Shown here: positions 1 through 59,560 of the stretch, piece after piece
How positions within the stretch are numbered: the stretch's first letter is position 1
Layout: every line of letters starts with the position of its first letter
DNA from: Minisyncoccota bacterium
GTDB taxonomy: Bacteria > Patescibacteriota > Minisyncoccia > Phycocordibacterales > JABAAK01
Reading direction: 5' to 3'
Length of the DNA: 64,000 nucleotides
Assembly (NCBI GenBank): GCA_965216295.1
Contig: OZ244141.1
Location: forward strand, 4,864 to 68,863
Notes under the pieces: generated by a model
What the model saw: only the letters and a program-made list of their open reading frames with translations
Told to the model about the DNA's origin: nothing
The model's database searches: none
Program-made: the position numbers and the translations under genes

Positions 1-97
1 AACCTACGACCTCTGCATTATCAGTGCAGTGCTCTAACCAGCTGAGCTACATTCGCGCAATGCAGAGCGAGTATACCATAGTGCCTCTAGCACATCA

Positions 98-1501
98 TTA
101 CAGTGCCAAACGGAATGCCTCATCACGATGATACACAGTTTGAAATGTCCCAAATGGTGCAAACCCTGGACTAAATAAAATAGTATCTTGAGACTTTGAG
201 AGTGATACTGCCCTATCAACCGCATCTTCAAGAGAGTCTACACGTATGTCGTTATCAGACAGTGCGTTAGCGATTTTGTCAGACCCAGAACCCGGTAAGA
301 GGAGTACAGTCCCATGATAGTTTTTCAATGCTTTCACAAGTGGCGCCACGGTAAACTTTTTATCAGCACCACCAAGAATAAGTACCGTTGCCTCTGGTAT
401 TGCGTTGAGTGCAGCAATGGTTGCCTGTGGTGTCGTTGCCGCACTATCGTTGTACCAAACACGATCAGTCAAACGACTAACTATCTTCTCTAATCGACCT
501 GGTAGTTTTCGCACAGAACGAAATGCTTTTTCAACAGTTGCATCTTGTATGGCAAGTTCTTCTGCAACTTTGTATGCAAGTGACGCATTGTAGAGCTGGT
601 GATCACCGCGTAACTGTACCCACGGTCGTAGATGAGGATTCATTTTTTCAACAACACGCACCCGTGCAGGAGATGGTATATCATACTGCTGTATCGCTCT
701 CTTCACAGACGCATCACATATGAGAATATCTCCTGACTTCTGAAACGCATAGCTGTTCGCCATGTCTGTAAAGTAGGATGCACTATCACCCTGATAGTAA
801 TCCATATAGTTATCAGCAAAATTGGTAAAGACACTGATGGTGGGACTCATCTTGGTAGTACCAAATCCTTGCAACTGCCATGCATCAAGTTCAAAGACAG
901 CAATAGAATCAGGTTCTATTGATTCAAATAATTGTAAATTAGAAATCCCTTTTTTGTTCCCACCAGACAACACCTTCTTTGTACCAAACGCACTACGACA
1001 GAGTGCTTCTACAAACGCTGTAACCGTTGACTTCCCTTCGGTACCAGTAATGCCGATAACACGAATACCCGCATGCTGTGCAAAAAATGCAGCACTCATA
1101 ATAATGGGGATTCCTGCCTTTCGTGCAGCGGCAAGGTAGATGTTATCTTTGGGCACTGCAGCGGCAGTGAGTATAAAATCAGCACTGACAAAGTCTTCCA
1201 CTGCATGACCTCCAAGACGAAATGTAATGTTTTTGTAACGACGGAGTGGTTCTACCGATTCAGTGAGTATATCGTACCCTTGTAGATCTGTGACGAGAAC
1301 GTGTGCACCTGCACGTGCCAACCAGGCAATGTCTCCTGCTTGTCTGCCGAGCGTCCCTAATCCCATAACAACTACCTTTCTATCTTTAAAAAAACGGTAT
1401 GGATCAAAATGAAGTTGCCACTGTGTCACCGTCTTACCACCAGTGACAAGTGTTGGAGTAAAAACATGCGTAGCGCTTTTTTGAACCTCGTGCTGTTTCA
1501 T
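98..1501 (-). CDS. murD: UDP-N-acetylmuramoylalanine--D-glutamate ligase (MurD). The internal ATG at 1501..1499 (MKQHEVQ...) gives 467 aa. The reading frame continues upstream without a stop into the ATPase ORF.
   Basis: Mur-ligase ATP-binding loop GITGTEGKSTV, VVVMGLGTLGRQAG N-terminal Rossmann motif, DSAATTPQATIAAL and ILGGADKKF C-terminal motifs. Length is typical of MurD. Confidence 0.85.
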   Translation of the reverse strand: MKQHEVQKSATHVFTPTLVTGGKTVTQWQLHFDPYRFFKDRKVVVMGLGTLGRQAGDIAWLARAGAHVLVTDLQGYDILTESVEPLRRYKNITFRLGGHAVEDFVSADFILTAAAVPKDNIYLAAARKAGIPIIMSAAFFAQHAGIRVIGITGTEGKSTVTAFVEALCRSAFGTKKVLSGGNKKGISNLQLFESIEPDSIAVFELDAWQLQGFGTTKMSPTISVFTNFADNYMDYYQGDSASYFTDMANSYAFQKSGDILICDASVKRAIQQYDIPSPARVRVVEKMNPHLRPWVQLRGDHQLYNASLAYKVAEELAIQDATVEKAFRSVRKLPGRLEKIVSRLTDRVWYNDSAATTPQATIAALNAIPEATVLILGGADKKFTVAPLVKALKNYHGTVLLLPGSGSDKIANALSDNDIRVDSLEDAVDRAVSLSKSQDTILFSPGFAPFGTFQTVYHRDEAFRLAL

Positions 1502-3490
1502 CGGTGGTGCACTACGTTCTTGCCCTCTTCTGTCCTTCTCTGGTATCTTTTTTTTCTCGTATGATGATATCTCTTCTGGTATCCTTTTTTTCTCGTGTGT
1601 TGTTGTCTCCTGAATGATTTTTGGTTTTGGACCGGGTATGAGTGGTTTCTGAGGGTGTATGTGAACTACCGTATCCTTTTTGTTTGGACCGGGTATGAGT
1701 GGTTTCTGAGGATGTGTGTGAACTACCGTATCCCTTTTAAAAGGTTGTTTTTTTTTCTGATGATGCGGTGGTGGTGGTGTGTGTGTCTTTACATCAGCAA
1801 GAGAAACCCAGTCACTATTTGTCGGAGCAGGAGGAGGTGGAGCAAGTTTTGGTTTCTGTTCTAAAGGAGTCTGTGTTGCTGCTTCTTGTTGCATCGACTT
1901 CAAGACGCTTGCAAGACTATTCCCAGCACTTGCTGGTGGGGCTTTCTGTTCCTCCTTCCGAGGAGGAGGAGGAGCACCGTTATGTATATTATTCCGTTGG
2001 GGAACCCCTTTTTCATTTTTCTCATGAAAAGGAGCACCTCTAGTTACTCCCTGCCCATCATTGCCACCCCCTTTCTTGTCAGAGAAACTTCGATGATTAC
2101 CATTGCCAGACGGTGGACCGTTACGAGAAAAATTATTCCTTCCACTTCCACCTCCTTTACCACCCCCCTTACCACTACTTGCTATCTCCTGCCAATCTTT
2201 TTGAAGACTCTCTCCTATGCGTCCTTCAACGTCCTCACGCGCTGTCCCGTACTGCTCCCTGGATTGTCGTAAAACATTCTCTCGTTGTGAATCTGCAGGG
2301 TGTTGAGGAGGAGCGACGGTATATGCAGAGAATGGACGAGAACCAGCGTTATCAATGTTAAGAACGAGGTACATGTGGTAGCGTGGTAGCGCGATAAGAT
2401 CTTCTTGCTTGAAGACAGGGGTAAATTGTTTCTCTACCAACTCTGCATCAAGTGGACCAATACGAAAAGTGATGAGTGTTCCAACGTTACCAAACACAGC
2501 ATCCCGCACCATCTCATCAAGTTGTGCAATATACTGATGTGCCATAACGAGGTTTAATTTGTATTTTCGTGCCTCTGAGAGTATCTCTGCAAACGTACTG
2601 CTGGCAAATGATTGAAACTCATCAACATAAAAGTTCGATGGTGGAAGTGCTTCACGCTCTTTACTCTCTAAATCAGCACGGGAAAGTGTCGCAAGATACA
2701 ATTTCGTTGAAAAAAGAACACCCAAGAGTCTCGCATTTGTATCACCAATAGTTCCTTTGGATAGGTTGATAAGGAGTATCTTTCTGGTATCAATCACATC
2801 ACGAAAACTGAAAGCAGATTTTGGTTGACCAATAATATTACGAATCAATGGGTTTGAGGTAAACTGTCCAATCTTGTTTTGAATCGCAGGTGTTGCCTCA
2901 GCAGAGTACCGATCTGTATATCGAGCAAAATCACCACGCCAGTATGACCGTACCTGTGGATCTTTCACTGCATCGATAACTCGTTCACGGAAATCTTTGT
3001 TCGTGTACATGCGACCAACATCAAGAAGTGTTGTATCAGGATACTCAAGCAGTGCGAGAAGCGTGTTACTCAAAATGTATTCCATTCTGTCAGACCATGA
3101 TGTCTCTCCCCAAATACGACGAAAAGCGGCAATGAGGCTACTGACCACAAGGTGCCGCTTATCATACCCAACGTCCTCCATGATATTGAGAGCAATGGGA
3201 CGCTCTTGATCATGTGGCGCAAAGTAAATAGTATCATTGAGACGATCTGGAGTAATAAAATTTAAAAGACTATCAACTGCTTGACCGTGAGGGTCCATAA
3301 AAACAAGACCTCCACCATTGTTGATATCCTGTATTGCCATGTTTTCCAACAGTGTAGATTTTCCTGTCCCCGTCTGTCCGATAACATAAATATGCCGTGA
3401 GCGATCCTTCTCTTTTATCCCAAAACGAGTGGGCTTCCCTCGCCCATGCGCTTCTCCTAGGTAGGTTACTTGTTCTTCTTCAGGTATCAT
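1502..3490 (-). CDS. TrwB/TraD/VirD4-like AAA ATPase. The core spans about aa 1-400 (nt 2291-3490). It is followed by a roughly 260-aa Gly/Pro/Lys-rich disordered tail that runs in frame into murD with no stop codon.
   Basis: Walker A VIGQTGTGKST, downstream FMDPHGQ (DPKGE-like), Walker B YVDEFQ, and NLVMAHQYIAQL, as in type IV coupling-protein-like ATPases. No N-terminal TM segment. The tail contains tandem repeats KKDTVVH(T/I)HPQKPLIPGP(N/K) and EKK(R/K)IPE(E/K). Confidence 0.5.
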
Positions 3491-3663
3491 ATCGTCTCTT
3501 TGTCTAGTGTTTCTGTATCTTCTGATCGTAGCATGCGATTACCAGCAATAATTGCCAACAGAAGACCGATGGAAAACACAATCCACTCCTCCCATCGTGA
3601 ATAGCCACCGATAAAGGGTATGAGTAATAAAACAAGACTAACAATAAAAACAAATCGTTCCAT
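3487..3663 (-). CDS. Small single-pass membrane protein (58 aa, MERFVFIVSLVLLLIPFIGGYSRWEEWIVFSIGLLLAIIAGNRMLRSEDTETLDKETI). Its TGA stop overlaps the ATG of the ATPase gene (ATGA).
   Basis: Read by hand in a different frame from the listed 67-aa ORF. It has a hydrophobic helix flanked by charged residues, and its stop overlaps the downstream start by 4 nt, which suggests translational coupling. Confidence 0.4.
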   Translation of the reverse strand: MERFVFIVSLVLLLIPFIGGYSRWEEWIVFSIGLLLAIIAGNRMLRSEDTETLDKETI

Positions 3664-3904
3664 GGTGAAGCAATTATACCCCTTTTTTCAGGGAACCGCA
3701 TAGTCAATAAACATACTATAAATCACAACCGTGAGTACAACACTTTCTTTTGCCCCACTTATCCCTAGTATCGACAATCTAGGGGTGCCGTGTACGGTTT
3801 ACAGACCAGTACAATCGTCCTACCCAAGTGTGAAACACTCGGGTAACTGACCATTCCTCACAGTATCTATATCAAAAAGATAAAAATGCTGTCAGGCAGT
3901 ATTC

Positions 3905-5361
<1,457 letters not shown>

Positions 5362-5520
5362 GAAAAAAATAATAAGTGGAGCAAGAGAAAATGTTGTACA
5401 ACAATCTCTTGCGATTGTGGTTGTGATGTTTATAGTAATGACTGTAAAAAAACAAAAACAAACCAGCGACTGCATTGCAGACGCTCAGAGACAACAACGG
5501 AAAGCCTGTTACCGTTAGTA

Positions 5521-48937: not shown

Positions 48938-49426
48938 ATGACCAAAATAGATACAATCAAGTATCAAAACGCAATTTTGTATTTTATACAACATTGTAAC
49001 AACGAACACCTCGGTGCCACCAAATTAAACAAGTTGGTGTACTACTTAGATTTCTTGCATTACAGAGATGCCGGCAAAACCGTAACGGGAGATATATACA
49101 CGCACAAACAGTATGGTCCTGTTCCTAATTCCATAGATTACATCATTAATCTCCTTCAAAAAGAAGACAAGCTAGCCGTCACTGAAAATCCTTTTAACGA
49201 TGAGAATAGTGGACATCGGAAGAAGTATGAAACAAAAGTAGCCTCTGATACGTCTTGTTTTGATAAAGAGGAATTGAAGCTTTTACAAGGTATCTGCAAA
49301 GCATTCGAACAGTATAATACTCAAACAATTGTTGCCCAGACACACCTGGAAGCCCCTTGGTTTTACTCCAAGCCGCATGAAACTATTGATTATGAATACG
49401 CAAAATCAATAGATGTGAAAGTTTAG
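48938..49426 (+). CDS. DUF4065/Panacea-domain (SocA-like) antitoxin.
   Basis: ATKLNKLVYYLDFLHYRDAGKTVTGDIYTHKQYGPVPNSIDYI matches the Panacea/GepA core. Confidence 0.55.
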   Translation: MTKIDTIKYQNAILYFIQHCNNEHLGATKLNKLVYYLDFLHYRDAGKTVTGDIYTHKQYGPVPNSIDYIINLLQKEDKLAVTENPFNDENSGHRKKYETKVASDTSCFDKEELKLLQGICKAFEQYNTQTIVAQTHLEAPWFYSKPHETIDYEYAKSIDVKV

Positions 49427-49434
49427 TATGTGGT

Positions 49435-49848
49435 ATGTGGGAACCGCAAGAATATAAACAACGACCAGAGTTTCAAAAAACAGTAAAAAAACTAAAATTG
49501 AATCCTGCGGTTGAGAAACATCTTGTAAGTTCCATAGATAATTGGTTGCAGAGTGAACACGATCATTTAATAGCATTACCAACAAAAAAACTTTTATGGC
49601 AATCTAAGGATAAAAACGTAAAAATATTTTGTGTGAAAATACCAAGTCCAGACAGACAATCTGGTAAAAGTGGTGGGTATAGATTAATCGTAATTTATTC
49701 TATTAGTGAATGTGTTGCAGAAGTTGGGAAAATTTTTGACAGAAGAAAGCTCGGCTTTAAAGGCAGTTCTGGTAAAGATGATAGTAACTATGATGAGCAT
49801 ATTGCTGATTTAAAAAAAGAATACACACGCGAGCCCAAAGAGTGTTAA
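49435..49848 (+). CDS. RelE/HigB-superfamily toxin-like protein.
   Basis: 137 aa, with SGKSGGYRLIVIY resembling the HigB/RelE GGYRVIY core. It starts 8 nt after the Panacea ORF. Confidence 0.45.
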   Translation: MWEPQEYKQRPEFQKTVKKLKLNPAVEKHLVSSIDNWLQSEHDHLIALPTKKLLWQSKDKNVKIFCVKIPSPDRQSGKSGGYRLIVIYSISECVAEVGKIFDRRKLGFKGSSGKDDSNYDEHIADLKKEYTREPKEC

Positions 49849-55080: not shown

Positions 55081-55203
55081 ACTCTGTAAGTATGGATCAA
55101 TATAGTCCCTTTTAAGAATGTCTCTATAGTAAAACTGTATGTACTCACCAGGAAGAATAACGGTGCACAGCAAGGAAGTCATGCCCGTGAGTAATATTGC
55201 AAG

Positions 55204-55276
55204 TCCACCCGCCTGGACTTGAACCAGGAACCGCTCGTGTATAAGACGAGTGCTCTACCAATTGAGCTACAGGTGG
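55204..55276 (-). tRNA. tRNA with anticodon UAU (tRNA-Ile reading AUA).
   Basis: The reverse complement gives CCACCTG TA GCTC AATTGGTA GAGC A CTCGT-CTTATAC-ACGAG ... CCTGG-TTCAAGT-CCAGG CGGGTGG A. The anticodon loop has U33 and A37 in place. Confidence 0.65.
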
Positions 55277-58717: not shown

Positions 58718-59161
58718 ATGGCGTATATAACCAACCGAGAGGTGAAAAAAAATATGAAAATCGTGGATACTCTGCGAGCGGGCATCTCCCTCATTGGGAG
58801 TGAGGTGAAGAGTGTTCGTGAGGGTTCTGGATCACTCCAAGGTGCTCGTGTCCTAATACGAGGCAATGAAGTGTTCCTTGTTGGAGCAACCATACCCCCT
58901 TATCAGGTAAAAAATACACCAGATGACTATGATCCTACTCGTACTAGACGACTCCTCATTGGCAAACATGAGCGAGAACAACTTGCGCGAAAGGTTGATG
59001 CAAAAAACTTGACACTTGTACCCATCTCTATTTACAATGTTGGTAGAAACCTCAAGGTTGATATTGCACTTGCGCGGAAAAAATTGAGTGGTGACAAACG
59101 TGAGGTTATACAGAAAAGAGATGCGAAACGGACAATACGGAAAGCATTTGGAAGAAAGTAA
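58718..59161 (+). CDS. smpB: SsrA-binding protein SmpB.
   Basis: GISLIGSEVKSVREGSGSLQGARVLIRGNEVFL and a basic C-terminal tail. Located directly upstream of tmRNA. Confidence 0.85.
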   Translation: MAYITNREVKKNMKIVDTLRAGISLIGSEVKSVREGSGSLQGARVLIRGNEVFLVGATIPPYQVKNTPDDYDPTRTRRLLIGKHEREQLARKVDAKNLTLVPISIYNVGRNLKVDIALARKKLSGDKREVIQKRDAKRTIRKAFGRK

Positions 59162-59213
59162 TTTCTATTCCTCTCTAGGGAGTCATCTCACCCCACCCGA
59201 GGTGGCTCCCTAC

Positions 59214-59560
59214 GGGGGTGTCAGGATTTGACAGTTACCCAAGGTAGATAGTGTAGCGTGGTAGAGCGAGATCTCTTTAAACATCGAATACATGCAAAAG
59301 AAAAATTTGCACGGGCTGGTCTCGTACCAGTACCTGCATTTGCGTAAGTAAAATTCACGTGAGTGCCGTCTGCTAAGCAATACTCAGTACGCATAGCAAG
59401 GCGTCAGAATTCTGAGTACATGGATGTGTGAACCGCTTCGGTACACATCGACATACAGAAGCAAACCACGGGTGTGCTTACCCTATATAAGCACTACGTC
59501 ACGAAGAAGCGCTATGTACCAGTAACATGGACGGGAGTTCAATTCTCCCCACCTCCACCA
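59214..59560 (+). ncRNA. ssrA: tmRNA (ssrA), 347 nt.
   Basis: 5' GGGGGTGTCAGGATTTGACAG pairs with 3' ...GGACGGGAGTTCAATTCTCCCCACCTCCACCA (T arm plus acceptor plus CCA). A candidate tag ORF at 59294..59347 gives AKEKFARAGLVPVPAFA followed by a stop. Confidence 0.8.

What the first reader, a model, noticed from the sequence alone, without database searches (positions are those of the whole stretch)
98..3707. VirD4/TrwB-like ATPase joined in frame to MurD through a repetitive disordered linker, preceded by a coupled 58-aa TM protein
ORF 98..3490 is continuous for 1130 codons. The N-terminal 400 aa form a TrwB/TraD/VirD4-type AAA ATPase (Walker A GQTGTGKST, DPHGQ, Walker B DEFQ) with no N-terminal membrane helices. 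About 260 aa of low-complexity Gly/Pro/Lys/His sequence follow. This stretch includes two perfect-ish tandem repeats (57-nt unit at 1625-1740; 36-nt unit at 1550-1600). Then comes a complete MurD that has its own internal ATG at 1501. This is either a genuine ATPase-MurD fusion or a stop codon missing between two genes. Immediately upstream, a hand-found 58-aa single-TM ORF (3487..3663) ends in ATGA overlapping the ATPase start. It could supply the membrane anchor that canonical coupling proteins carry in cis, giving a split coupling protein (inference).
Basis: partly seen in the sequence, partly recalled or inferred. Interest (0 to 1): 0.6.

Follow-up and report, generated by a model that had tools for sequence, protein, structure and literature searches.

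The report
Orphan coupling-type ATPase fused to dead MurD
In one uncultivated Patescibacteria genome, a membrane-tethered motor ATPase common to this group is joined in one reading frame to a copy of the cell-wall enzyme MurD that has lost its metal-site catalytic residues; the join is unique and needs confirming on the raw reads.

Summary
ORF 98..3490 (minus strand, 1130 codons) is continuous. It contains a TrwB/VirD4-fold P-loop ATPase (aa 1-430), a 264-aa disordered stretch, and a full-length MurD-like module (aa 695-1130). A 58-aa ORF overlaps the ATPase start by ATGA.

Three points change the interpretation:
- The small ORF is a conserved two-helix membrane hairpin, not a single TM. It lies upstream on the same strand in 121 of 140 testable relatives, which supports a split membrane-anchored ATPase.
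- Relatives end 7-14 residues after a conserved C-terminal peptide and are followed by tRNA-Ile. In the window that peptide is internal (aa 559-567), and 127 linker codons plus murD lie before the same tRNA. murD is upstream in 73 of 154 relatives and is never downstream or fused. No second fusion exists among 1.84 billion representative proteins.
- The MurD module carries D182N, H183Y, K198M and N268Q. These positions are invariant in 119-120 of 120 homologues, so it is probably not an active ligase.

An A9 run, the only one in 64 kb, sits where the ancestral stop should be. A genuine young fusion (about 0.65) therefore cannot be separated from a homopolymer error without the reads. This is a new variant of a known kind, of moderate interest.

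The parts
3673..3678 (-). TATAAT box 10 nt upstream of the small ORF's ATG; likely promoter of a short-leader or leaderless small-ORF/ATPase transcript
   Evidence: Read from the sequence. Many window genes have a similar box 10-15 nt before the ATG and no SD. Function is inferred.
3487..3663 (-). 58-aa two-helix membrane hairpin protein, the conserved partner of the ATPase; its stop overlaps the ATPase start (ATGA)
   Evidence: An HMM iterated from it finds 130 homologous ORFs (116 unique) with core LILLGvLtiLtPFSGLPxsxRslLxvifGAcVlgIG. They lie upstream on the same strand in 121/140 loci, and 78 are within 150 nt.
2201..3490 (-). TrwB/VirD4-fold P-loop ATPase domain (aa 1-430), with Walker A at nt 3353-3379 and Walker B at nt 2612-2626; no TM helix
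   Evidence: Pfam TrwB_AAD_bind. PDB profile hit to TrwB only, E=3e-5. AF2 model pLDDT 79.5, pTM 0.84, matching TrwBdeltaN70 at TM 0.60-0.67. 59-70% identity to hundreds of Patescibacteria proteins.
1817..2200 (-). Native disordered Gly/Pro/Ser/Lys-rich tail of the ATPase (aa 431-558)
   Evidence: All relatives carry a variable 100-600 aa low-complexity tail after the ATPase. Composition.
1790..1816 (-). Conserved 'C-terminal' peptide SDWVSLADV (aa 559-567), which is internal in this protein
   Evidence: In the closest relatives the motif ..[YS][ED][ED]GWVSLGDL is followed by only 7-14 residues and the stop. The wider family ends in ..PFEVPEExLRxhFK...
1748..1756 (-). A9 run (CAG AAA AAA AAA CAA; aa 579-581) at the position expected for the ancestral stop. 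A +/-1 change gives a stop after 2 or 7 codons past the run's following CAA
   Evidence: It is the only A/T run of 9 or more in the 64-kb window. It is a candidate site for a sequencing error, a stop-loss mutation or transcriptional slippage.
1409..1789 (-). 127-codon Lys/Pro/Thr/His-rich linker (aa 568-694) with no homologue; contains both tandem duplications (1626-1738, 1539-1609) and the start candidates ATG 1499-1501 and GTG 1427-1429
   Evidence: No database protein matches it. The open frame has P about 0.01. The codon-usage score is weakly positive in frame 0 only. Repeats.
98..1408 (-). MurD-like three-domain module (aa 695-1130, including stop 98-100) with a degenerate active site: P-loop R->E (nt 1037-1039), D182N/H183Y (nt 806-811), K198M (nt 761-763), N268Q (nt 596-598)
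   Evidence: NCBIfam murD at 239 bits against a cut-off of 212. Alignment to E. coli MurD 1e0d_A. These positions are invariant in 119-120 of 120 homologues. The window deviates at 18 of 108 highly conserved columns, against a control mean of 1.05 and maximum of 6.
1..56 (-). tRNA-Ile(GAT), cut by the window edge; the ancestral downstream neighbour of the ATPase gene
   Evidence: Rfam tRNA at 45 bits. It aligns to the tRNA-Ile(GAT) that follows the ATPase in L005 (50 nt after the stop), L003 and L006.
3907..5368 (-). 16S rRNA gene directly upstream; the small-ORF/ATPase pair lies between 16S and tRNA-Ile (a split rrn operon)
   Evidence: Rfam SSU at 1335 bits. 16S also lies upstream of the ATPase in L003 and L004.

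Best explanation
The locus holds a two-gene module found across Patescibacteria. The first gene encodes a 58-aa two-helix membrane hairpin. The second, translationally coupled to it, encodes a soluble TrwB/VirD4-fold P-loop ATPase. That ATPase has a long disordered tail which normally ends in a conserved short peptide.

Inference: the hairpin tethers the ATPase ring to the membrane, doing in trans what the two N-terminal helices of canonical coupling proteins do in cis. The tail peptide is inferred to be a docking motif for an unknown partner.

In this one lineage a murD copy with about 380 nt of upstream sequence came to lie between the ATPase's 3' end and the tRNA-Ile that normally follows it. 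The ATPase stop was lost at or near what is now an A9 run. The former spacer, enlarged by two in-frame tandem duplications, is read through into murD and gives a 1130-aa protein.

The MurD moiety keeps its fold and its UDP-MurNAc-L-Ala, nucleotide and D-Glu contact residues. It has lost the Mg2+-site residues (H183Y, K198M, D182N) and N268. It therefore most likely no longer ligates D-Glu. It persists as a ligand-binding or docking appendage, with a working murD expected elsewhere in the 512-kb genome.

Shown here: the ORF, the domains, the fold, the partner conservation, the synteny, the insertion site and the residue losses. Inferred: the membrane tethering, the loss of activity, the non-catalytic role, and that the fusion is real at the DNA level.
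For: - ORF and domains.
- Fold.
- Partner gene: present in 121/140 loci, always upstream on the same strand, with a two-helix core. A sister branch of the family has N-terminal TM helices in cis, so the family works at the membrane.
- Insertion: relatives end 7-14 aa after the conserved peptide and are followed by tRNA-Ile(GAT). The window has the same peptide, then linker and murD, then the same tRNA.
- In favour of a real fusion:
  - The 127-codon linker is open (P about 0.01).
  - There is no start codon in frame between aa 568 and 663, and none at the native MurD start.
  - There is no TATAAT-like box before either internal start candidate, in a genome that lacks SD sequences.
  - Both duplications have periods that are multiples of 3.
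  - Linker frame 0 has a positive codon-usage score while all 24 intergenic control frames are negative.
  - About 52 kb of other ORFs, including three of 2006-4144 aa, hold 28 A/T runs of 7 or more without a frameshift.
- Dead active site; roles of H183 and KCX198 from PMC9780078 and PMC4816537.
- Constraint on MurD: excess divergence is 0.16 at columns that are at least 95% conserved and 0.38-0.48 at variable columns. The 436 codons contain no stop.
Against: - The fusion is a singleton. It has one protein record from one contig. No relative exceeds 70% identity in 185,579 species genomes or in the JGI metagenomes. No second fusion exists among 1.84 billion representatives. Neither conservation nor an independent assembly supports it.
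- The A9 run sits exactly where the ancestral stop is expected. No other run of 9 or more exists in the window to calibrate the error rate.
- GTG 1429 has an SD-like GGTGG and lies only 7 codons before the native MurD start, so a separate murD gene is conceivable.
- The linker discriminates between frames worse than any of 124 real-gene windows.
- Burying the conserved C-terminal peptide inside the protein might impair the ATPase's normal function.
- Loss of ligase activity is inferred from residues and was not measured.
- FtsW and a MurA-like gene are present and no other murD is visible in the window. This copy could therefore be the only murD and would then have to work.
Confidence: 0.55

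Rival explanations
1. Sequence artefact. The true genome has A8 or A10 (or another indel in the A/T-rich linker). The ATPase then ends about 15-21 residues after its conserved peptide, as its relatives do, and a separate murD-like gene starts at GTG 1429 or ATG 1501.
For: - The A9 run at 1748-1756 is the only run of 9 or more in 64 kb, and it lies just where relatives stop.
- Both shifted frames stop within 2-7 codons after the run's following CAA.
- GTG 1429 is 7 codons before the native MurD start and has an SD-like GGTGG.
- The fusion is a singleton.
- The linker shows only weak frame discrimination.
Against: - After such a stop, 72 further codons up to ATG 1501 would be open with no start codon (P about 0.09). 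The full 127 codons have P about 0.01.
- 28 A/T runs of 7 or more, and 3 of 8 or more, in 52 kb of other ORFs are intact, including 30 kb of giant ORFs. The assembly is therefore not indel-prone.
- Both duplications preserve the frame.
- There is no promoter-like box before the internal starts.
Confidence: 0.22
2. Neutral read-through into a decaying gene. The fusion is real at the DNA level but has no function. A redundant murD copy lost its start and its catalytic residues and is eroding. Stop loss in the ATPase gene extends translation into it, and the product is tolerated or degraded.
For: - Five changes at otherwise invariant catalytic or P-loop positions, and 18/108 deviations at conserved columns.
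- The native start codon is lost.
- Singleton distribution.
- The conserved terminal peptide is now buried.
Against: - 436 codons contain no stop or frameshift.
- Divergence is graded by column conservation (0.16 against 0.38-0.48) rather than uniform.
- 90 of 108 highly conserved columns and all substrate-contact residues tested (K115, N138, E157, N271, R302, D317, S415, F422) are kept.
- The codon-usage signal of the MurD part is as strong as in other genes (frame 0 +0.286).
Confidence: 0.2
3. Active bifunctional protein. The MurD moiety is this genome's working D-Glu ligase, relocated from the murD-murC cluster. It uses a modified metal site and is tethered to a membrane-associated ATPase.
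For: - FtsW and a MurA-like gene are retained nearby, and no other Mur ligase lies in the window.
- In relatives murD is linked to this ATPase module (murD-murC-rsmI-small ORF-ATPase).
- The NCBIfam murD equivalog cut-off is passed.
- Substrate-contact residues are kept.
Against: - H183 and K198 are 120/120 invariant in homologues.
- KCX198 stabilises the catalytic Mg2+, and Lys198 mutants are much less active (PMC4816537). H183 contacts Mg2+ (PMC9780078).
- Only 64 kb of a 512-kb contig was seen, so a canonical murD may lie elsewhere.
Confidence: 0.1

Closest known systems
Type IV coupling proteins (TrwB of R388, VirD4, F TraD)
   Same: - FtsK/HerA-superfamily P-loop core with an inserted all-helical domain. 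TrwBdeltaN70 is the best full-length structural match and the only sequence-profile hit in the PDB.
- F TraD also has a disordered C-terminal extension ending in a short partner-binding peptide (own knowledge).
   Different: - There is no TM anchor in the polypeptide. A separate 58-aa two-helix protein is encoded upstream instead.
- No VirB4, relaxase or other T4SS gene lies in 64 kb.
- The neighbours are housekeeping genes: rRNA, tRNA and, in relatives, murD-murC-rsmI.
Orphan VirD4-type T4CP homologues of Patescibacteria (PMC12102498)
   Same: Same group of proteins: 5,713 homologues in 2,918 genomes, only 148 near virB4, with possible exaptation noted. The window's ATPase is 59-70% identical to many of them.
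   Different: The passages I read (term search only) do not mention the conserved 2-TM partner gene, the conserved C-terminal peptide, or the synteny with murD-murC-rsmI and the rrn operon. The MurD fusion is unique to this window.
[quoted passage not shown]
   Same: Three-domain architecture. The murD equivalog score is passed. K115, N138, E157, H267, N271, R302, D317, S415 and F422 are conserved.
   Different: - D182N, H183Y, K198M, N268Q and the P-loop R->E.
- No start codon of its own at the native N-terminus.
- At most 45% identical to any other MurD, whereas the homologues average 56% to one another.
- Fused to an unrelated ATPase.
Thermus thermophilus dnaX tau/gamma (transcriptional slippage at an A9 run)
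   Same: An A9 run inside a coding sequence, with stops close by in both shifted frames. Slippage would yield a shorter product alongside the full-length one (PMC1088944; window).
   Different: Nothing shows that slippage occurs or is used here, and no relatives carry the same arrangement to test conservation.
Natural Mur-enzyme fusions (e.g. bifunctional MurE/MurF, MurC/Ddl; NCBIfam NF008896, NF011171)
   Same: A Mur ligase joined in frame to another protein (these models appear as weak hits).
   Different: Those fusions join two active enzymes of the same pathway. Here the partner is a coupling-type ATPase and the Mur module lacks its metal-site residues.

Membership tests
Type IV coupling protein (VirD4/TrwB/TraD) | P-loop NTPase core of the FtsK/HerA/TrwB type with Walker A and B | tested here: met
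   GQTGTGKST and VDEFQ. Pfam TrwB_AAD_bind at 36.3 bits against 20.5. TrwB is the only PDB profile hit.
Type IV coupling protein (VirD4/TrwB/TraD) | All-alpha domain inserted in the nucleotide-binding domain | tested here: met
   The AF2 model has helices H109-H234 between core strands. It aligns over about 430 columns to TrwBdeltaN70 at TM 0.60-0.67. This rests on a prediction.
Type IV coupling protein (VirD4/TrwB/TraD) | N-terminal transmembrane anchor in the same polypeptide | tested here: not met
   No hydrophobic segment in the 1130-aa protein. Homology to relatives starts at residues 1-6. A separate 2-TM ORF lies upstream.
Type IV coupling protein (VirD4/TrwB/TraD) | Genetic association with a T4SS (virB4) or a relaxase | tested here: not met
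   None among the annotated genes of the 64-kb window. The rest of the 512-kb contig was not seen. The literature reports 148 of 5,713 near virB4.
Type IV coupling protein (VirD4/TrwB/TraD) | Hexameric ring that engages DNA or protein substrates | not testable with these tools
   Needs biochemistry or a multimer model.
MurD (UDP-MurNAc-L-Ala:D-Glu ligase) | Three-domain Mur ligase architecture and the family score threshold | tested here: met
   MurD-like_N, Mur_ligase_M and Mur_ligase_C. TIGR01087 at 239.4 bits against a cut-off of 211.95.
MurD (UDP-MurNAc-L-Ala:D-Glu ligase) | Mg2+-site residues His183 and carbamoylated Lys198 | tested here: not met
   H183Y (aa 895) and K198M (aa 910). Both are 120/120 conserved in homologues. 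Their roles come from PMC9780078 and PMC4816537.
MurD (UDP-MurNAc-L-Ala:D-Glu ligase) | ATP, UMA and D-Glu contact residues (K115, N138, N268, N271, R302, D317, S415, F422) | tested here: inconclusive
   All are kept except N268Q (119/120 N in homologues). In addition, the P-loop GTRGKS has become GTEGKS (R is 120/120).
MurD (UDP-MurNAc-L-Ala:D-Glu ligase) | Independent gene with its own start at the native N-terminus | tested here: not met
   Stand-alone MurDs start at the position of aa ~695. No ATG, GTG or TTG occurs between aa 689 and 708. The nearest are GTG V688 and ATG M664.
Patescibacterial 2-TM mini-protein partner of the orphan ATPase (unnamed family, defined here) | Two hydrophobic helices around a PF(S/I)G turn, encoded upstream of the ATPase on the same strand | tested here: met
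   The window ORF matches the family HMM (E=7e-10) and overlaps the ATPase start by 4 nt. The family is present in 121/140 loci.
dnaX-type transcriptional slippage site | Run of at least 9 A in the sense strand with nearby stops in both shifted frames | tested here: met
   A9 at 1748-1756. Stops follow 2 and 7 codons past the run's following CAA. It is the only such run in 64 kb.
dnaX-type transcriptional slippage site | Heterogeneous mRNA and two protein products | not testable with these tools
   Needs RNA or protein data.

The most novel reading that the evidence does not exclude
The fusion is a natural 'Rosetta stone'. On this reading the orphan coupling-type ATPase and its 2-TM partner are not a secretion component. 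They form a membrane-tethered motor that works with the peptidoglycan-precursor (Mur ligase) machinery. This would explain why the module follows murD-murC-rsmI in about half of related genomes. In this lineage the ATPase has captured a catalytically dead MurD as a built-in adaptor that binds a precursor or a Mur complex. The A9 run placed just after the native C-terminal peptide would then act like the Thermus dnaX site. Slippage would give a normal-length ATPase with its peptide near the free end, and in-frame reading would give the ATPase-pseudoMurD form.
Probability: 0.12. Interest if true: 0.75.

Novelty: new variant of a known kind. Interest (0 to 1): 0.45.

Why it matters
Thousands of Patescibacteria genomes encode VirD4-like ATPases that are not next to any secretion system, and their role is unknown (PMC12102498).

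Three leads emerge from this locus and its 154 relatives:
- The ATPase almost always comes with a tiny two-helix membrane protein, so it is probably a split, membrane-tethered motor.
- Its long disordered tail ends in a conserved peptide, which looks like a docking motif.
- The module is often placed after murD-murC-rsmI or inside a split rRNA operon.

If the in-frame MurD fusion is genuine, it is the only direct physical hint so far that links this motor to cell-wall precursor synthesis. It would also be an example of a Mur ligase turned into a pseudoenzyme. If the fusion is a homopolymer error, the family-level findings still stand, and the case is a caution about singleton fusions in metagenome-assembled genomes.

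Tried and rejected
- Lost stop between conserved neighbours: rejected. murD is upstream in 73 of 154 loci and downstream in none. Apparent full-length matches such as L057, L080 and L082 are a separate murD lying 2.2-2.4 kb upstream.
- Retrieving the source contig or its gene calls: failed. P0001 and the SecF-like protein are not on record, and the cluster record carries no accession or name. I could not look for a second murD or identify the sequencing platform.
- Independent assembly of the junction: none found. The best identities are 70% in species genomes and 63% in metagenomes. Neither the 5.8-billion nor the 1.84-billion protein set holds a second fusion.
- Shine-Dalgarno test for an internal MurD start: uninformative. 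The genome hardly uses SD, and its 16S tail lacks CCUCC.
- Consensus promoter and terminator scan of 1-4000: not above shuffles, at 9 against 7.4 and 1 against 2.8.
- Homology between the small ORF and the in-cis N-terminal helices of the sister branch: none detected. The 'split' is therefore supported by topology and synteny only.
- Homology of the 127-aa linker to any protein: none.
- Codon-usage test of the linker: intermediate, not decisive.
- Structure prediction of the MurD part: not run. With an alignment of canonical MurDs it would return the MurD fold regardless of activity.

Full report
**1. Observation**

All features are on the minus strand.

- ORF 98..3490 is continuous for 1130 codons.
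- Pfam places TrwB_AAD_bind on aa 28-327 (36.3 bits, cut-off 20.5). It places MurD-like_N, Mur_ligase_M and Mur_ligase_C on aa 705-1108.
- NCBIfam's murD equivalog scores 239.4 bits (cut-off 211.95) on aa 705-1128.
- Between the two domains lie 264 residues rich in P, K, G, Q and T.
- The linker holds two tandem duplications. One has a 57-nt period (1626-1738, 95% identity). The other has a 36-nt period (1539-1609, 86% identity).
- The 58-aa ORF 3487..3663 overlaps the ATPase start by ATGA.

Three corrections follow in the sections below.

**2. Setting**

The window comes from a Patescibacteria (Paceibacteria-type) genome. All relatives of the ATPase are from that group.

The identical 1130-aa protein is on record once, from a single 511,782-bp contig, without name or accession.

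On the same strand the order is:
- a MurA-like gene,
- an ABC-F ATPase,
- an unknown gene,
- FtsW, SecD and SecF,
- 16S rRNA (3907-5368),
- the small ORF,
- the fusion ORF,
- a tRNA cut by the window edge.

The rest of the window holds housekeeping genes and three giant surface-protein ORFs. It has no T4SS gene, no relaxase and no other Mur ligase.

**3. The ATPase and its family**

Several hundred proteins match aa 1-430 at 45-70% identity.

- They start with the ATPase at residues 1-6 and have no TM helix.
- A variable low-complexity tail follows. The median total length is 590 aa, and the range is 528-982.
- They end in a conserved peptide at the extreme C-terminus. In most it reads ..PFEVPEExLRxhFK... 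In the window's subclade it reads ..Y[ED][ED]GWVSLGDL, followed by 7-14 residues.

A profile of the domain finds only TrwB in the PDB (E=3e-5).

An AlphaFold model (pLDDT 79.5, pTM 0.84) matches TrwBdeltaN70 over about 430 of 435 residues at TM 0.60-0.67. The match includes an all-helical insertion (H109-H234). DotL, Cagbeta, HerA and VirB4 follow.

A 2025 survey counted 5,713 such VirD4-type homologues in 2,918 Patescibacteria genomes. Only 148 lie near virB4, and the authors raised possible exaptation (PMC12102498). The ATPase is therefore a member of a known 'orphan coupling protein' group.

**4. The small ORF**

An HMM iterated from the window's 58-aa ORF recovers 130 ORFs (116 unique) in the fetched loci.

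- Of 140 ATPase loci with at least 400 nt upstream, 121 (86%) carry it upstream on the same strand.
- In 78 of these it is within 150 nt.
- The conserved core is LILLGvLtiLtPFSGLPxsxRslLxvifGAcVlgIG. This is two hydrophobic helices around a tight turn, followed by a charged tail.

It is thus a two-helix hairpin, not a single TM. Two helices is the topology of the N-terminal anchor of canonical coupling proteins (own knowledge).

A more distant branch of the ATPase family has 1-2 N-terminal TM helices plus a domain of about 350 aa in cis (P0286, P0288, P0307). The family is therefore membrane-associated elsewhere. Those helices are not detectably homologous to the small ORF.

The 'anchor in trans' idea is well supported by synteny and topology. 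It remains an inference.

A TATAAT box lies 10 nt before the small ORF's ATG. The genome lacks SD sequences, and its 16S tail lacks CCUCC. The pair is probably transcribed from that box and translated by coupling.

**5. How murD got there**

In 154 related loci murD lies upstream on the same strand in 73, at 2.2-7.5 kb. It is never downstream and never fused.

Where the intervening genes were examined (L057, L080, L082), the order is murD, murC, rsmI-type methylase, small ORF, ATPase.

In the window's closest relatives the ATPase gene is followed by tRNA-Ile(GAT):
- 50 nt after the stop in L005,
- after a tRNA-Thr in L006,
- after one extra gene in L003.

A 16S gene lies upstream in L003 and L004. 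The window's truncated tRNA at 1-56 is that same tRNA-Ile.

The ancestral state here was therefore 16S ... small ORF, ATPase, tRNA-Ile. The window has about 380 nt of linker plus murD inserted between the ATPase's conserved terminal peptide and the tRNA. That peptide is now internal (SDWVSLADV, aa 559-567).

The ancient linkage of the module to murD-murC makes a local duplication or transposition a plausible source. This is inference.

**6. The MurD module**

Stand-alone MurDs (430-470 aa) align from window aa ~695. No start codon exists there. The nearest are GTG V688 and ATG M664.

The module is at most 45% identical to any MurD. The 120 homologues average 56% to one another.

Mapped onto E. 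coli MurD (1e0d_A, where the P-loop Lys is residue 115):
- Kept: K115, N138, E157, H267, N271, R302, D317, S415 and F422.
- Changed: D182N, H183Y, K198M, N268Q and GTRGKS to GTEGKS.
- The changed positions are invariant in 119-120 of 120 homologues.

At 108 columns that are at least 95% conserved, the window deviates 18 times. The control mean is 1.05 and the maximum is 6.

H183 contacts Mg2+ (PMC9780078). Carbamoylated K198 stabilises the catalytic Mg2+, and Lys198 mutants are much less active (PMC4816537, citing Dementin 2001).

The excess divergence is graded: 0.16 at the most conserved columns and 0.38-0.48 at variable ones. The 436 codons have no stop, and their codon-usage signal is as strong as in other genes.

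This pattern indicates accelerated but still constrained evolution with specific loss of the metal site. That is the signature of a pseudoenzyme or a re-purposed paralogue rather than plain decay.

**7. Real fusion or error?**

For a real fusion:
- The 127 linker codons are open (P about 0.01 by dinucleotide shuffling).
- No start codon lies in frame between aa 568 and 663.
- Both duplications keep the frame.
- The linker's frame 0 has a positive codon-usage score, while all 24 intergenic control frames are negative.
- No promoter-like box precedes the internal starts.
- About 52 kb of other ORFs contain 28 A/T runs of 7 or more, and 3 of 8 or more, without a frameshift. This set includes 30 kb of giant ORFs.

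Against:
- The fusion is a singleton.
- An A9 run (1748-1756), the only A/T run of 9 or more in the window, sits 11 codons after the conserved peptide. That is where relatives stop. Both shifted frames terminate 2 or 7 codons past the run's following CAA.
- The linker discriminates frames worse than any real-gene window.
- GTG 1429 could serve as a murD start.

I put a genuine fusion at about 0.65 and an indel artefact at about 0.2-0.25. Only the reads can decide.

Even if the DNA is correct, an A9 run is a known transcriptional slippage site. In Thermus thermophilus dnaX it gives about 50% truncated product (PMC1088944). Both a normal-length ATPase and the fusion may therefore be made. This is speculative.

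**8. Mechanism proposed**

- Shown: the parts and their conservation.
- Inferred: the hairpin protein tethers a TrwB-like ATPase ring to the membrane. The disordered tail presents a terminal peptide to an unknown partner. In this lineage the tail continues into a MurD-fold module. That module can probably still bind UDP-MurNAc-L-Ala and nucleotide but cannot ligate. It would act as an adaptor or have no role.
- Prediction: a canonical murD lies elsewhere in the genome.

**9. Comparison, novelty and score**

The ATPase works like, and is structurally closest to, a type IV coupling protein. It fails two defining membership features: the in-cis anchor and T4SS association. It belongs to the known orphan group in Patescibacteria.

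As far as I could check, the new elements are:
- the conserved 2-TM partner,
- the terminal peptide,
- the murD-murC-rsmI and rrn synteny,
- the unique fusion to a metal-site-dead MurD.

Verdict: a real and unusual ORF, a new variant of a known kind, with interest about 0.45. Its central claim, the fusion, still needs read-level confirmation.

Noticed in passing
window 3907-3935 (16S 3' end) and the start regions of about 29 window genes: The 16S rRNA 3' tail reads ...GTGGAATGTAAATCAAG and lacks the anti-Shine-Dalgarno CCUCC. Most genes have no SD. Many have a TATAAT-like box 10-15 nt before the ATG, which suggests leaderless or short-leader translation.
   Followed up: partly
window 1-5368; L003, L004, L005, L006: Protein-coding genes (the small ORF and the ATPase) lie between the 16S rRNA gene and tRNA-Ile(GAT), which is a split rrn operon. 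No 23S rRNA is present in the 64-kb window.
   Followed up: partly
window 17496-47142 (-): Three tandem giant ORFs of 2006, 4144 and 3715 aa fill 30 kb. The first has Big_13, PKD-like and PG_binding_1 domains, so they are probably surface or adhesion proteins.
   Followed up: partly
window 55203-55276 (-): A tRNA-Ile with anticodon TAT, which to my knowledge is an uncommon way for bacteria to read AUA. It is present alongside the tRNA-Ile(GAT) at 1-56.
   Followed up: no
window 48938-49848 (+): A SocA/Panacea-domain antitoxin-like gene (162 aa) is followed 8 nt later by an unannotated 137-aa ORF. This may be a toxin-antitoxin pair.
   Followed up: no
P0286, P0288, P0307 and about 40 other hits: A more distant branch of the same ATPase family carries an N-terminal region of 300-460 aa with 1-2 TM helices and a conserved ...LN.EELA..YH.P... 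segment before the ATPase. This is a different way of anchoring the same motor.
   Followed up: partly
L057, L080, L082 and 73 loci overall: The gene order murD, murC, rsmI-type TP_methylase, small 2-TM ORF, ATPase was seen in the three loci examined. murD lies upstream on the same strand in 73 of 154 loci, so the orphan ATPase module often sits at the end of a Mur-ligase cluster.
   Followed up: yes
window 58718-59560: smpB lies directly next to the tmRNA gene (tag peptide AKEKFARAGLVPVPAFA). This is an ordinary arrangement, recorded for completeness.
   Followed up: no
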